Assembly: GCA_965371225.1 (NCBI GenBank)
Contig: CBDUXP010000001.1
Span: 71,883 to 135,882, forward strand
Direction of reading: 5' to 3'
Source: an uncultured bacterium
GTDB lineage: Bacteria > Abyssobacteria > SURF-5 > CBDUXP01
Length of the DNA: 64,000 bases
The notes beneath the pieces are model-generated. The model made no database searches and was not told the origin of the DNA. It saw only the letters and a list, made by a program, of their open reading frames with translations. Numbering within the stretch: position 1 is the first letter of the stretch; every line of letters begins with the position of its first letter. Below, piece by piece: positions 13,331-49,012 of this stretch. The position numbers and the translations under genes are program-made.

Positions 13331-13681
13331 CTACTCGGGCGGGGGCGCGCCGCCCGCCTCGCCGGGCGCCAGCTCTTGCATGCGCTCGTGCAACTGCTCG
13401 CGAAACACCCCCTTCAACTCCATCATGAGGGAATTGTCCTCCAGGTGCGAAAAGCGCGTATCCAGTTCCGCCTCGAGGTCCGCGAGGGACTTGTCCTCCC
13501 CGGCTTTCTTGACCGGGTGGCCCTCCACCGTAACCCGGGCCACCCCGAAGCGTTCGAGCCGGCCGATCAAGTTCTCGGTCAGTTCGGTGCCGGGGCCGCA
13601 GATAGTGGTGCCCTGCTCGCTGGTGGCCGGCTCGGCCAGCACCATGCCTGCCTTGGCTTGGGGAAGGGTAATGCGCTGCAT
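13331..13681 (-). CDS. Hypothetical protein (116 aa), first gene of the HDOD/GGDEF operon
   Basis: ORF with RBS-compatible context, separated by 2 nt from the HDOD gene. No recognisable family. Confidence 0.35.
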   Translation of the reverse strand: MQRITLPQAKAGMVLAEPATSEQGTTICGPGTELTENLIGRLERFGVARVTVEGHPVKKAGEDKSLADLEAELDTRFSHLEDNSLMMELKGVFREQLHERMQELAPGEAGGAPPPE

Positions 13682-13831
13682 CGGGGACCGCCGGCGGTGG
13701 TGTTCGGGTGACGCACGGCGGTGTGCGATCCTGTCACCGCAGAATCAGCTTATTCTACTGCCAACGCCACGGCACCGTCAATTTGCTCAATATGCGGGGG
13801 CGCCGCGGACCGGGGCCACCACGGACGGTGG

Positions 13832-13860
13832 TTGACGCAGCGGACATGGTCGGCTACCCT
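13832..13860 (+). promoter_or_regulatory. Candidate sigma70-type promoter (TTGACG-N17-TACCCT) driving the MATE leader
   Basis: TTGACG at 13832..13837, 17-nt spacer, TACCCT at 13855..13860. Found by eye, not statistically validated. Confidence 0.25.
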
Positions 13861-14000
13861 GTGGCCTGGTTGGAAGAGAGACGCACGCATGTCGGCAGGG
13901 GACACCATCACCGCGGAAGGCACGGGCGCGCAGCCGTTGGGCGGCGTGTGTCCGGCGACCAGGTCGTGAAGCTCTAGATAGCGTTCCATAAGAGATTCCA

Positions 14001-14032
14001 CCCTGGCTCGCCGCGGCGATCCAGGGTTTTTT
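14001..14032 (+). terminator. Intrinsic terminator / attenuator hairpin in the 5' leader, 24 nt upstream of the MATE start codon
   Basis: CCCTGG-CTCGCCGCGGCGAT-CCAGGG followed by TTTTTT. The inner TCGCCGCGGCGA is itself palindromic. There is no plus-strand gene upstream to terminate. The 13700..14055 interval has low GC3 in every frame and is likely non-coding. Confidence 0.5.
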
Positions 14033-14055
14033 CATTCTCTAGACTACGAACGGAC

Positions 14056-15486
14056 ATGCAGACCATGAACATCGATACGAGTTACCGGCGCATCGCGCTG
14101 CTGACTTACCCCGTCGTCATCGCGCAGACGAGCCACGTCTTCATGGGCGTGATGGACACGGTCATGGTCGGCCGCCTCGGCGTCAGTGAATTGGGCGCCG
14201 TGGGCTTCGCGGGCATGGTCACGTGGTGTTTCCTCTCCGTGCTGTTCGGCCTGTTCAGCAGCGTGAACACGGTCGTGGCGCAAGCGTACGGGGCGGGGGA
14301 CGACCGCGCGTGCGGCGTGGCGTTCTGGCAGGGCATGTACCTCGCCGCCATCGGCGCCGTCGCCTTGGCGGGGCTGTGGGTGCTCATCCCCACGATCTAT
14401 CGCGTCAGCGGCGCCTCGGCCGAGGTCCAGCAGTTCGCCACGAGTTACGTGCGCATTCGCCTGCTCAGCGGCGTGGGGTTCGGCATGCTCGTGGTGGCGG
14501 ACAACTTCTACCGCGGTCTGGGCCGGACGATCGTGCCCATGTGGTTCGGCATCCTCCAGTGCGTGCTGAACATGATCCTGAACTACGGCCTGATCTTTGG
14601 GCACTTCGGCCTGCCCGCACTGGGGACGGACGGCGCGGCCCTGGGCACGGTCATTGCGCTCACCATTTCCGGTGCCCTGCTGTTCGCCACCATCCTCCTC
14701 AGCCCGGAGGTGCGGCGCCGCTACCAGATCACGACCACGTGGCGCTTCGATGCTGCCGTGTTCCGGCGATTGCTGCACATCGGGTGGCCCACGGGCGTGC
14801 AGTCGTTCTTTGATATGGCCTCGATCAACGTGTTCGCCGCTTGCATCGCACGCCTGGGCGACGCGGAACTCGCCGCCACCAACGCGGGCATCCAGGCGTG
14901 GGTGATGGCGATGGTGCCCACCATCGCACTGAGCGTCAGCGCCACAACGCTGGTCGGCCACTGCGTCGGCGCGGGACAGTACGCCGATGCGCACCGCATC
15001 GTGCAGCGCCTGCTCCGGCTGGGGTATCTGATGTTATTGGGGTTCGCAGCCGTGTACTTGCTCGCGCCCGGCCAGATCATGGCGATATTCCTCAAGGCCG
15101 AGGACTTGCCACTGGTGCTGCCGTATGCGCGGCCGCTCTTCTTCATCGTCGTCCTGTGCATGGCGTTCGAGATGCAGTTCAACGTGGGGTCGGGCGCGCT
15201 GCGCGGCGCGGGCGATACCCTCTTCCCCGCCGCCCTCGCCATCGGTGTGTCCTGGCTCGTGTTCGTGCCGCTGACCATCGTGGTCACGCCCCGGTTTGGG
15301 CTGCTCGGCGCCTGGTCGGGGCTCTTCGTGTGGTGCGTCATGATTGCCGGCGGGGTGATGCTGCGCCTGCGCGGCACCCGCTGGCTCGAACGCGCCGGCG
15401 CCCATCCCGAGGACGTGGTGCGCGCCGCAGCGCCCGGGGATCCCTCCGCGCTCGGGGCGGGCCGGCTGACGGTGCGGGTGAAGTAG
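14056..15486 (+). CDS. MATE family multidrug/sodium efflux transporter (NorM-like)
   Basis: 476 aa, 12 predicted hydrophobic segments. MATE N-terminal signature YRRIALLTYPVVIAQTSHVFMGVMDTVMVGRLG. Confidence 0.8.
   Translation: MQTMNIDTSYRRIALLTYPVVIAQTSHVFMGVMDTVMVGRLGVSELGAVGFAGMVTWCFLSVLFGLFSSVNTVVAQAYGAGDDRACGVAFWQGMYLAAIGAVALAGLWVLIPTIYRVSGASAEVQQFATSYVRIRLLSGVGFGMLVVADNFYRGLGRTIVPMWFGILQCVLNMILNYGLIFGHFGLPALGTDGAALGTVIALTISGALLFATILLSPEVRRRYQITTTWRFDAAVFRRLLHIGWPTGVQSFFDMASINVFAACIARLGDAELAATNAGIQAWVMAMVPTIALSVSATTLVGHCVGAGQYADAHRIVQRLLRLGYLMLLGFAAVYLLAPGQIMAIFLKAEDLPLVLPYARPLFFIVVLCMAFEMQFNVGSGALRGAGDTLFPAALAIGVSWLVFVPLTIVVTPRFGLLGAWSGLFVWCVMIAGGVMLRLRGTRWLERAGAHPEDVVRAAAPGDPSALGAGRLTVRVK

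Positions 15487-48935: not shown

Positions 48936-49012
<77 letters not shown>

What the first reader, a model, noticed from the sequence alone, without database searches (positions are those of the whole stretch)
13700..14055. Long non-coding leader with strong intrinsic terminator directly upstream of the MATE efflux gene: candidate riboswitch or attenuator
- About 360 nt between divergent genes contain no convincing ORF; GC3 is low in all frames.
- A promoter-like TTGACG-N17-TACCCT sits at 13832..13860.
- A textbook terminator, CCCUGG-N14-CCAGGG followed by UUUUUU, ends only 24 nt before the MATE ATG.
- A terminator placed inside a 5' leader just before the start codon is the classic expression platform of a transcription-attenuating riboswitch, or of a ligand- or peptide-controlled attenuator.
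- Efflux pumps are frequent riboswitch targets, for example the guanidine-responsive classes.
- I could not match the upstream ~130 nt to a known aptamer by eye.
Basis: partly seen in the sequence, partly recalled or inferred. Interest (0 to 1): 0.55.

Follow-up and report, generated by a model that had tools for sequence, protein, structure and literature searches.

The report
Leader-peptide attenuator before MATE efflux gene
The stretch in front of this drug-efflux (MATE) gene holds a promoter, a tiny 26-codon reading frame and a transcription stop signal, an arrangement conserved in related bacteria that most likely lets ribosome speed on the tiny frame decide whether the pump gene is transcribed; this is a known kind of switch, not a riboswitch.

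Summary
The promoter-like site (13832-13860) and the terminator (hairpin 14001-14026, T6 14027-14032) are real. This hairpin is the only canonical intrinsic terminator in the 64-kb window.

A 26-codon ORF (13889-13969, local GC3 0.88, SD-like GGAAGAGAGA upstream) lies between promoter and terminator.

Seventeen further MATE orthologue loci (44-59% protein identity; those with a named source are Thermoanaerobaculia/Acidobacteriota MAGs) carry the same layout:
- TTGACN-N17/18-TAnnnT promoter
- an ATG uORF of 20-49 codons
- 28-50 nt of spacer
- a terminator with a CCCYGG/CCRGGG stem
- the MATE gene, with no promoter-like site in between

The peptides are not conserved, but the reading frame is kept, including across an in-frame 15-nt indel.

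The best-conserved leader parts are the last ~20 nt of the uORF and the terminator. These two can pair (13952-13963 with 14002-13), which would block the terminator. A ribosome at the uORF stop codon would cover that strand.

No Rfam family matches, and no aptamer-like conserved block exists.

Verdict: a ribosome-dependent (leader-peptide) transcription attenuator. It is a new member of a known kind. The sensed signal, probably slowed translation such as from ribosome-targeting toxins, is inferred only.

The parts
13832..13837 (+). -35 box TTGACG of the leader promoter
   Evidence: Read directly. The same TTGACN box sits 17-18 nt before a TAnnnT box in 13 of 14 orthologous leaders.
13855..13860 (+). 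-10 box TACCCT (TAnnnT); the transcription start is inferred near 13866-13870
   Evidence: The T-A-n-n-n-T positions are conserved between the window and L001 although the spacer has diverged. The transcription start itself is inferred, not mapped.
13872..13881 (+). Shine-Dalgarno-like purine run GGAAGAGAGA, ending 7 nt before the uORF ATG
   Evidence: SD-like GGAG/GAGG/AGGA motifs lie 6-11 nt before the uORF ATG in most orthologous leaders.
13889..13969 (+). uORF (leader peptide): 26 codons plus TGA, MSAGDTITAEGTGAQPLGGVCPATRS
   Evidence: Local GC3 is 0.88. A same-length 26-codon uORF sits at the same place in syntenic L001. All 14 complete leaders analysed carry a uORF that ends 28-50 nt before the terminator, whereas shuffled leaders do so with P = 0.03-0.18 each. 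The frame is preserved by an in-frame 15-nt indel in L169 versus L170.
13952..13963 (+). Antiterminator 5' strand CCGGCGACCAGG, inside the last codons of the uORF; it ends 3 nt before the stop codon
   Evidence: It pairs with 14002-14013 in the MFE fold of the nascent RNA. The duplex dG is -23.0 against -19.2 for the terminator hairpin. The uORF's last 21 nt are 81% identical to L001, against 53% for the rest of the uORF. Complementarity across leaders gives a combined Z of -4.4.
13970..13999 (+). 30-nt spacer between the uORF stop and the terminator
   Evidence: Its length is constrained to 28-50 nt (median about 33) across leaders. It is 95-97% identical in close pairs but unalignable between distant ones.
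14000..14032 (+). Intrinsic terminator: hairpin ACCCUGGcUCGC-cgcg-GCGAuCCAGGGU plus U6 (14027-14032). The 5' arm at 14002-14013 doubles as the antiterminator 3' strand.
   Evidence: The stem is conserved with compensatory changes (U-A to C-G) in 14 leaders; 6 of 10 pairs show double changes.
14033..14064 (+). Short tail between the terminator and the MATE start; too short for a promoter
   Evidence: No TTGNNN-N16-18-TANNNT site occurs in the tail of any of the 14 leaders.
14065..15486 (+). Regulated gene: MATE family efflux transporter (an alternative start is at 14056)
   Evidence: TIGR00797 matE at E = 5e-72, with NorM-like models as the next best. Pfam PF01554 is present in all homologues.

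Best explanation
This is a ribosome-dependent (leader-peptide) transcription attenuator that controls the MATE efflux gene.

Proposed mechanism:
1. Transcription starts at the conserved promoter (13832-13860).
2. A ribosome loads on the 26-codon uORF (13889-13969).
3. The last codons of the uORF (13952-13963) are complementary to the 5' arm of the terminator (14002-14013).
4. If that strand is free when the 5' arm emerges from RNA polymerase, the two pair. This antiterminator prevents the terminator hairpin from forming, and the MATE gene is transcribed.
5. If the leading ribosome keeps pace and is at or near the uORF stop codon (13967-13969), its footprint covers the strand. The terminator (14000-14032) then forms and transcription stops about 33 nt before the MATE start.
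6. The pump would therefore be switched on whenever translation of the leader lags behind transcription. The likeliest cause is ribosome-targeting antibiotics or toxins that the pump may export, or general translational stress.

What is shown:
- the parts themselves
- their conservation
- preservation of the reading frame
- the complementarity between uORF end and terminator arm
- the lack of a second promoter

What is inferred:
- that the uORF is translated
- the direction of the switch
- the nature of the signal
For: (1) Terminator
- It is real and unusual. It is the only canonical intrinsic terminator in 64 kb, with dG -21.5 and z -3.9.

(2) Conserved architecture
- The same layout occurs in the window plus 17 orthologous loci from different genomic neighbourhoods.
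- The layout is promoter TTGACN-N17/18-TAnnnT, then an SD-like motif and ATG uORF of 20-49 codons, then 28-50 nt, then a terminator with a CCCYGG/CCRGGG stem, then MATE.
- Shuffled leaders contain such an ORF with P = 0.03-0.18 each, while 14 of 14 real leaders do.
- Among 124 distant MATE loci, only 3 have a strong upstream terminator and only 1 also has such a uORF.

(3) The frame is kept while the peptide drifts
- Window and L001 both have 26 codons, although the uORF body is only 53% identical.
- L169 and L170 differ by an in-frame 15-nt indel, giving 44 versus 49 codons.
- L167 and L168 both have 27 codons, with 3 synonymous and 8 non-synonymous changes.
- In-frame amino-acid composition is protein-like. 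Ile, Met, Thr and Val are enriched and Arg is depleted relative to shuffles and to the off-frames.

(4) Antiterminator
- In the nascent-RNA MFE fold, 13952-13963 pairs with 14002-14013.
- The duplex is -23.0 kcal/mol against -19.2 for the hairpin.
- Equivalent duplexes of -17 to -30 kcal/mol occur in L001, L004, L087, L089, L167/168 and L169/170. All end 0-5 nt from the end of the stop codon.
- The 5' arm pairs with the uORF 3' end in the nascent MFE fold of 7 of 14 leaders.
- Complementarity between the uORF end and the arm exceeds shuffles, with a Stouffer Z of -4.4 over 14 leaders.
- Between the window and L001, an A-to-C change in the uORF strand is matched by a C-to-G change in the arm.
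- The U-to-C and C-to-U changes between L167 and L168 keep the pairing.

(5) Conservation gradient
- It peaks exactly at the two partner strands. For window versus L001, identities are 0.53 (uORF body), 0.81 (last 21 nt), 0.51 (spacer), 0.81 (terminator) and 0.69 (MATE CDS).

(6) No second promoter
- No promoter-like site lies between the terminator and MATE in any leader. MATE must therefore be read through the terminator.

(7) Precedent
- Experimentally established precedents of the same logic exist for drug-export genes, namely bmrB-bmrCD (PMC4191407) and mef(E)/mel (PMC4335068).
Against: - Translation of the uORF is not demonstrated.
- In a 68% GC genome, open frames are common. The off-frames of the window uORF also lack stop codons.
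- The complementarity statistic is modest for any single leader. The window alone gives p = 0.057.
- An unrestricted duplex search finds other, equally good partners for the arm in several leaders.
- In 7 of 14 leaders, the nascent MFE fold does not pair the arm with the uORF end.
- The criteria of the uORF shuffle test were chosen after seeing the data.
- No regulatory codon run or conserved arrest motif identifies the signal.
- The full-length leader thermodynamically prefers the terminator (-66.4 against -54.1 kcal/mol), so the outcome depends on kinetics that cannot be computed here.
- Twelve orthologues lack the leader: Ca. Multivorans and relatives, L009, and L171/L172. The leader is therefore dispensable for the pump.
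- No upstream 'segment 1' (anti-antiterminator) could be assigned with confidence. The candidate at 13863-13873 may lie upstream of the transcription start.
Confidence: 0.65

Rival explanations
1. A metabolite- or ion-sensing riboswitch. An aptamer in the roughly 130 nt upstream of the terminator would bind a ligand, such as guanidine or a pump substrate, and switch between terminator and antiterminator. The ORF would be incidental.
For: - A terminator sits in a 5' leader just before the start codon, with an alternative pairing available.
- Efflux genes are known riboswitch targets (general knowledge).
- The spacer between the uORF and the terminator is 95-97% conserved in close pairs.
Against: - No Rfam family reaches threshold in the window or in 13 homologous loci. 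With permissive E-values, only noise appears in 13600-14150.
- Across 14 leaders, only the terminator is a shared structure and no conserved sequence block exists upstream.
- The window and L001 are at about 0.5 identity everywhere except the uORF end and the terminator.
- The leader fold is no more stable than shuffles (z -0.56).
- The 5' UTR before the ATG is only about 10-35 nt.
- The ORF's start, frame and distance to the terminator are conserved, which a riboswitch does not require.
Confidence: 0.06
2. An independent small gene, either a micro-protein or a roughly 165-nt sRNA, with its own promoter and terminator that happens to sit upstream of MATE. MATE would be expressed by constitutive leak-through or from an unrecognised promoter, and there would be no conditional switch.
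For: - Promoter plus short transcript plus strong terminator is the anatomy of an sRNA or small-protein gene.
- Gene callers annotated the uORF as a 44- or 49-aa gene in L169 and L170.
- Within one subclade the peptides are recognisably similar.
- In some leaders the tail after the terminator is 118-162 nt long.
Against: - Peptide sequences are unrelated between subclades, and in a close pair they change 8 non-synonymous to 3 synonymous.
- The unit travels with MATE through different neighbourhoods: an HDOD/GGDEF operon, Ada/Ogt, an S41 peptidase, DUF72 and FeoB.
- It is absent upstream of 124 distant MATE genes.
- No promoter-like site occurs in any tail, and the window tail is only 28-33 nt.
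- The uORF end is complementary to the terminator arm, and the stop-to-terminator distance is constrained.
Confidence: 0.12
3. Protein-mediated attenuation. An RNA-binding protein of the TRAP, PyrR or BglG kind, or a trans-acting sRNA, would bind the conserved CCCYGGG box or the spacer and decide between terminator and antiterminator. uORF translation would be secondary.
For: - The stem sequence (A/G)CCCYGGG is conserved in sequence, not only in pairing, across distant leaders.
- A similar box recurs at the uORF end.
- The spacer is highly conserved within subclades.
Against: - No candidate regulator gene is linked to the unit, since the neighbours differ at every locus.
- No repeated binding-site pattern was seen in the leaders.
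- This model does not explain the conserved ATG, SD, frame and stop position.
Confidence: 0.07
4. The same leader-peptide attenuator, but sensing amino-acid supply in the manner of trp, thr or ilv leaders rather than translation inhibitors. Stalling would occur at Thr, Ile or Val codons when charged tRNA is scarce.
For: - Ile, Thr, Val and Met are over-represented in the uORFs (z = 3.9, 2.5, 2.1 and 3.3).
- The window peptide contains D-T-I-T.
- The geometry, with the terminator about 30 nt after the stop codon, is like that of trpL (own knowledge).
Against: - No runs of a given codon occur. Thr is absent from L004 and L019.
- The regulated gene is an efflux transporter, not a biosynthetic operon.
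- The neighbours are not amino-acid genes.
Confidence: 0.08

Closest known systems
bmrB-bmrCD ribosome-mediated transcriptional attenuator of Bacillus subtilis (PMC4191407)
   Same: - A small translated ORF between the promoter and a multidrug-exporter gene.
- An intrinsic terminator with an alternative antiterminator.
- Efficient leader translation favours termination, while slowed translation (lincomycin, chloramphenicol, erythromycin) favours read-through.
- The leader peptide acts as a sensor without needing a conserved function in trans.
   Different: - bmrB has 53 codons and its terminator lies inside the coding region. Here the uORF has 20-49 codons and stops 28-50 nt before the terminator.
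- The regulated pump is an ABC transporter there and a MATE transporter here.
- The phylum is Firmicutes there and Acidobacteriota here.
- There is no sequence similarity.
- bmrB is experimentally proven, whereas this one is only predicted.
Classical amino-acid leader-peptide attenuators (E. coli trpL type; own knowledge and the discussion in PMC4191407)
   Same: - Order of parts: promoter, short 5' UTR, leader ORF, stop codon a few tens of nt before the terminator.
- A strand near the ORF end can pair with the terminator 5' arm (the 2:3 antiterminator) and is masked by a ribosome at the stop codon.
   Different: - There are no tandem regulatory codons.
- No convincing segment 1 (anti-antiterminator) was found.
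- The antiterminator strand lies inside the ORF rather than just after it.
- The target is an efflux pump, not a biosynthetic operon.
mef(E)/mel and msr(D) macrolide-inducible leader-peptide attenuators (PMC4335068; bioRxiv 10.1101/2021.11.29.470318, listed)
   Same: Transcription attenuation of efflux or resistance genes by a leader peptide and terminator that respond to a ribosome-bound drug.
   Different: - Those leaders encode short, conserved arrest peptides specific for macrolides. Here the peptide sequence is not conserved between subclades.
- They sit on mobile elements of Gram-positive bacteria, whereas this one is chromosomal.
Guanidine-I (ykkC) and other riboswitches upstream of efflux genes (Rfam)
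   Same: A terminator-type expression platform located in the leader of a transporter gene.
   Different: There is no match to any Rfam model and no conserved aptamer. A conserved uORF occupies the space where an aptamer would be.

Membership tests
Ribosome-dependent (leader-peptide) transcription attenuator | An intrinsic terminator (GC-rich hairpin plus U-tract) lies in the 5' leader, between the promoter and the regulated gene, with no promoter in between | tested here: met
   The hairpin is at 14000-14027 with U6 following. The promoter is at 13832-13860. No promoter-like site occurs in the tails of 14 leaders. The terminator is conserved with compensatory changes.
Ribosome-dependent (leader-peptide) transcription attenuator | A short ORF with a start codon and ribosome-binding site lies within the leader and is maintained in evolution as an open frame | tested here: met
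   The uORF is at 13889-13969 with an SD-like motif. All 14 complete orthologous leaders analysed have one, against P = 0.03-0.18 for shuffles. Equal length is kept despite 47% divergence. An in-frame 15-nt indel is seen.
Ribosome-dependent (leader-peptide) transcription attenuator | The leader ORF is actually translated | not testable with these tools
   This needs ribosome profiling, toeprinting or a translational fusion. The only indirect support is SD-like motifs, GC3 of 0.88 and protein-like composition.
Ribosome-dependent (leader-peptide) transcription attenuator | An antiterminator structure exists that is mutually exclusive with the terminator, and its formation depends on ribosome position on the leader ORF | tested here: met
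   Window: 13952-13963 pairs with 14002-14013 in the nascent MFE fold, and the strand ends 3 nt before the stop codon. Family level: Z = -4.4. Clear duplexes occur in 9 leaders, but only 7 of 14 show the pairing by nascent MFE. The feature is therefore met for the window and only moderately supported for the family.
Ribosome-dependent (leader-peptide) transcription attenuator | An identifiable stalling determinant (regulatory codons or an arrest motif) names the signal | tested here: not met
   No codon runs or shared arrest motif were found, and the peptides are unrelated between subclades. This does not exclude sequence-independent sensing of translation speed, as proposed for bmrB.
Ribosome-dependent (leader-peptide) transcription attenuator | Conditional termination and read-through occur in vivo | not testable with these tools
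   This requires Term-seq, Northern blots or reporter assays.
Riboswitch (any Rfam class, e.g. guanidine-I/ykkC) | A significant match to the family covariance model | tested here: not met
   There were no hits at gathering threshold in the window or in 13 loci. In 13600-14150 the best E-values are 0.16-9, to unrelated families and mostly on the wrong strand.
Riboswitch (novel class) | A conserved, structured aptamer with invariant nucleotides lies upstream of the expression platform | tested here: not met
   RNAalifold finds only the terminator. The leader fold has z = -0.56. Identity outside the uORF end and terminator is about 0.5 between the window and L001.
Drug-specific nascent arrest peptides (ErmBL/ErmCL/MsrDL type) | A conserved peptide arrest motif | tested here: not met
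   The peptides are not alignable across subclades. In a 91%-identical pair, the changes are 8 non-synonymous to 3 synonymous.

The most novel reading that the evidence does not exclude
The leader would be a sequence-independent 'translation-speed meter'. Because only the act of reaching the stop codon in step with RNA polymerase matters, any compound or stress that makes ribosomes lag would switch on the MATE pump. This would give a poorly known phylum (Acidobacteriota, class Thermoanaerobaculia) a generic antibiotic sensor and its first attenuator with an assigned function. In addition, the terminated leader RNA of about 165 nt might act in trans, as rnTrpL does in Sinorhizobium.
Probability: 0.3. 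Interest if true: 0.6.

Novelty: new member of a known kind. Interest (0 to 1): 0.45.

Why it matters
- The library searches returned ribosome-mediated attenuation of drug exporters only for ABC and MFS/ABC-F systems of Firmicutes and for the MexXY regulator in Pseudomonas.
- Those searches turned up no such element for a MATE pump or for Acidobacteriota.
- If confirmed, this leader would define a new, uncatalogued (non-Rfam) cis-regulatory family.
- It would explain how uncultured soil and sediment bacteria induce an efflux pump without a dedicated transcription factor.
- It would supply a compact, peptide-independent sensor part with a clear set of testable mutations.
- It also shows that intrinsic terminators, rare in this genome, are kept where they are used for regulation.

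Tried and rejected
(1) Riboswitch or known RNA
- Rfam was run at gathering threshold on the window and on 13 loci, and with permissive E-values on 13600-14150.
- Nothing credible was found.

(2) Close relatives
- A single-protein scan of GTDB genomes found none. A profile scan was needed.
- The window's own protein (P0001) is on no retrievable contig and carries no name or accession. The organism is therefore inferred only from the nearest named relatives (Thermoanaerobaculia).

(3) Unrestricted search for the best partner of the terminator 5' arm
- It was not significant for individual leaders, and the partners were scattered.
- Only the position-specific test at the uORF end gave a signal.

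(4) Consensus structure of the stop-to-terminator region
- The spacers are unalignable across subclades, and only the terminator emerges.
- A shared spacer hairpin seen by eye in several leaders (L004, L005, L018, L020) could not be generalised.

(5) Anti-antiterminator (segment 1)
- GGCCUGGUUG at 13863-13872 pairs with the uORF end in a fold started at 13860.
- It probably lies at or before the transcription start, so it was left unassigned.

(6) Minus-strand ORFs across the spacer (13750-14001 and 13787-14035)
- Their GC3 is low.
- No equivalent gene was called in L001.
- The region is not conserved there.

(7) Sigma-54 promoter
- GGCAC...TTGC at about 13772-13790 has the wrong spacing by inspection, so this was rejected.

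(8) Third close pair (L171/L172)
- These orthologues have no terminator-type leader at all.

(9) Arrest motifs (R/K-x-R/K, poly-Pro)
- They are present in some uORFs but not in the window peptide, and they are expected by chance in GC-rich frames.
Full report
**Observation**

The region 13682-14055 separates a minus-strand gene (13331-13681) from a plus-strand MATE efflux gene. The minus-strand gene encodes 116 aa and is followed by HDOD and GGDEF genes.

- TTGACG at 13832-13837
- a 17-nt spacer
- TACCCT at 13855-13860
- CCCTGG at 14001-14006, then N14, then CCAGGG at 14021-14026
- T6 at 14027-14032

The N14 adds four more pairs around a CGCG loop. The hairpin folds at -21.5 kcal/mol, with z = -3.9 and none of 200 shuffles folding as well.

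A census of hairpin plus T-run sites on both strands shows this is the only canonical intrinsic terminator in the whole 64-kb window. The generic scanner missed it only because of its loop-length rule.

The window is 68% GC, and genes have GC3 of about 0.9.

Averaged over the spacer, no frame is gene-like. Between the promoter and the terminator, however, lies a 26-codon ATG ORF at 13889-13969, encoding MSAGDTITAEGTGAQPLGGVCPATRS.
- Its local GC3 is 0.88.
- A purine-rich, SD-like GGAAGAGAGA ends 7 nt upstream of the ATG.
- No in-frame start codon lies between the predicted transcription start and this ATG (read).

**Relatives**

The MATE protein has no close relative among GTDB species genomes. 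Its best database hits are 59% and then at most 54% identical.

The 59% hit lies on a 255-kb metagenomic contig (L001) with the same gene order: GGDEF, HDOD and a small gene on one strand, MATE and an acyl-CoA ligase on the other. In L001 the following are all conserved:
- the minus-strand promoter
- the plus-strand TTGACG-N17-TAnnnT
- the terminator
- a uORF of exactly 26 codons

Further orthologues (44-54% identity) came from ENA/Logan contigs, a GTDB profile scan and a JGI scan. Those with a named source are Thermoanaerobaculia/Acidobacteriota MAGs.

Seventeen loci besides the window show the same layout. L088 is only partial, and L007 and L169 carry the same leader. The layout is:
- promoter TTGACN-N17/18-TAnnnT
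- 17-41 nt
- an SD-like motif and an ATG uORF of 20-49 codons
- a stop codon
- 28-50 nt of spacer (median about 33)
- a hairpin with a (A/G)CCCYGG...CCRGGG stem plus a T-run
- 28-160 nt
- the MATE gene

The genes upstream of this unit differ from locus to locus: the HDOD operon, Ada/Ogt, an S41 peptidase, DUF72 and FeoB. The unit therefore travels with the MATE gene.

Twelve orthologues lack it:
- Ca. Multivorans and relatives, where MATE directly follows a DUF72 gene
- L009
- L171/L172

As a control, 124 distant MATE loci (26-36% identity, many phyla) were scanned. Only 3 have a strong terminator within 330 nt upstream, and only 1 also has such a uORF.

**Is the uORF real?**

- Dinucleotide-shuffled leaders contain an ATG ORF of at least 18 codons ending 25-55 nt before the terminator with probability 0.03-0.18. 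All 14 complete leaders have one. The thresholds were set after seeing the data, so the product of about 1e-16 is optimistic, but the effect is large.
- The frame is kept while the peptide drifts:
  - Window and L001 both have 26 codons, with only 53% nucleotide identity in the uORF body.
  - L169 and L170 differ by an in-frame 15-nt indel, 44 versus 49 codons.
  - L167 and L168 both have 27 codons, with 3 synonymous and 8 non-synonymous changes, which is close to neutral.
- In-frame composition is protein-like compared with shuffles and off-frames. Ile, Met, Thr and Val are up, and Arg and Leu are down.
- Peptides of different subclades are unrelated apart from a frequent M-[KR]-[IT] start.

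This is the signature of a regulatory leader peptide, not of a functional micro-protein.

**Is there an aptamer?**

- No Rfam family matches the window or 13 homologous loci.
- The whole leader is no more stable than shuffles, with z = -0.56.
- RNAalifold on the stop-to-terminator segment of 14 leaders recovers only the terminator. In it, 6 of 10 pairs carry compensatory double changes, for example U-A to C-G.
- The 5' UTR before the ATG is too short to hold an aptamer.

**The switch**

In each of three pairwise comparisons, identity in the uORF body is lower than in the last 21 nt of the uORF and in the terminator.

| Pair | uORF body | Last 21 nt of uORF | Spacer | Terminator | MATE CDS |
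|---|---|---|---|---|---|
| Window vs L001 | 0.53 | 0.81 | 0.51 | 0.81 | 0.69 |
| L167 vs L168 | 0.83 | 0.90 | 0.95 | 0.98 | 0.91 |
| L169 vs L170 | 0.77 | 0.86 | 0.97 | 0.93 | 0.89 |

(All values.)

For the distant pair (window versus L001), the spacer drops to random level, so the uORF end and the terminator are the two conserved islands. They are complementary. In the window, CCGGCGACCAGG (13952-13963) pairs with CCUGG-c-UCGCCG (14002-14013).
- This helix appears in the MFE fold of the nascent transcript that ends before the 3' arm.
- As a duplex it is worth -23.0 kcal/mol, against -19.2 for the hairpin.
- Equivalent duplexes of -17 to -30 kcal/mol exist in L001, L004, L087, L089, L167/168 and L169/170. 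All end 0-5 nt from the end of the stop codon.
- The differences between the window and L001 (A-to-C in the uORF strand, C-to-G in the arm) keep ten pairs, as do those between L167 and L168.
- Over 14 leaders, the last 18 nt of the uORF are more complementary to the 5' arm than shuffles, with a Stouffer Z of -4.4.

The support is not uniform. An unrestricted partner search is not significant per leader. Only 7 of 14 nascent MFE folds show this pairing.

A ribosome with the stop codon 13967-13969 in its A site would cover 13952-13963 completely. This follows from the known footprint size. The constrained stop-to-terminator distance fits such a steric and kinetic coupling.

No promoter-like site lies between the terminator and MATE in any leader. 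The window tail is only 28-33 nt.

**Most likely mechanism**

This is a ribosome-dependent transcription attenuator.
- When the leading ribosome keeps up with RNA polymerase and reaches the uORF stop, the antiterminator strand is masked, the terminator forms and MATE is not transcribed.
- When ribosomes lag or stall earlier, the strand pairs with the emerging 5' arm and polymerase reads into MATE.
- The signal is therefore probably slowed translation, most plausibly from ribosome-targeting compounds. This matches the experimentally shown bmrB-bmrCD attenuator of B. subtilis (PMC4191407) and the mef(E)/mel leader (PMC4335068).

Steps shown here:
- the parts
- their conservation
- frame maintenance
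- the complementarity
- the absence of a second promoter

Steps inferred:
- translation of the uORF
- the direction of the switch
- the signal

Thermodynamically, the complete leader prefers the terminator (-66.4 against -54.1 kcal/mol), so the decision must be kinetic.

**Comparison and novelty**

The element works like the trpL and bmrB classes, but it shares no sequence with them. The differences are:
- The terminator lies after the uORF, not inside it as in bmrB.
- There are no regulatory codon runs, unlike trpL.
- There is no conserved arrest peptide, unlike the Erm and Msr leaders.

Three literature searches found no such element described for MATE pumps or for Acidobacteriota. A survey noted that attenuators predicted in Acidobacteria almost all lack assigned functions (PMC2965389).

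I file it as a new member of a known kind, with moderate interest.

Noticed in passing
window 13732-13781 (minus strand): A divergent sigma-70-like promoter, TTGACG-18-TAGAAT (13781..13752), serves the 116-aa/HDOD/GGDEF operon. A 27-nt block at 13732-13758 covers the -10 box and the first ~20 nt of the transcript (AAGCTGATTCTGCGGTGACA on the minus strand). This block is almost identical in L001, although the proteins are only about 59% identical. It may be an operator or a 5'-UTR element of the c-di-GMP-related operon.
   Followed up: partly
window 14056 vs 14065: The MATE gene has two in-frame ATGs. The database protein (P0001, 473 aa) and the alignment with L001 favour 14065 (MNIDT...) over the first ATG at 14056.
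   Followed up: partly
whole window, both strands: Canonical intrinsic terminators are nearly absent from this 64-kb, 68% GC window. The single convincing one is the regulatory terminator in the MATE leader, which suggests that ordinary gene ends here use other termination modes.
   Followed up: partly
window 13972-13978 and 14037-14043: A 7-nt direct repeat, CTCTAGA, flanks the spacer-terminator segment. It contains the self-complementary TCTAGA. It could form a helix enclosing the terminator, but it is not conserved in L001.
   Followed up: no
L008, L010, L012-L016, L090, L091 (about 1000-1500 in each locus): In Ca. Multivorans and related MAGs, the orthologous MATE gene has no leader. It follows a DUF72-family gene by only 8-100 nt. 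In L020, L167 and L168 the same DUF72 gene is upstream but the leader is present. The leader was therefore apparently lost, or replaced by co-transcription, in one lineage.
   Followed up: partly
L169 725-859; L170 711-860: Automatic gene callers annotated the leader uORFs of these two loci as 44-aa and 49-aa hypothetical genes with no Pfam hit. Such leader peptides may therefore already sit unnoticed in protein databases.
   Followed up: no
window 48936-49009 (+): A tRNA gene is the only Rfam hit in the window (63.6 bits).
   Followed up: no
terminator 5' flanks in L004, L005, L007, L011, L017, L018, L023: Most orthologous terminators have an A-rich run (AAAAG, GAAG, CAAAG) just before the stem. 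This run can pair with the U-tract. The window and L001 lack it (UUCCA/UUGCA).
   Followed up: no
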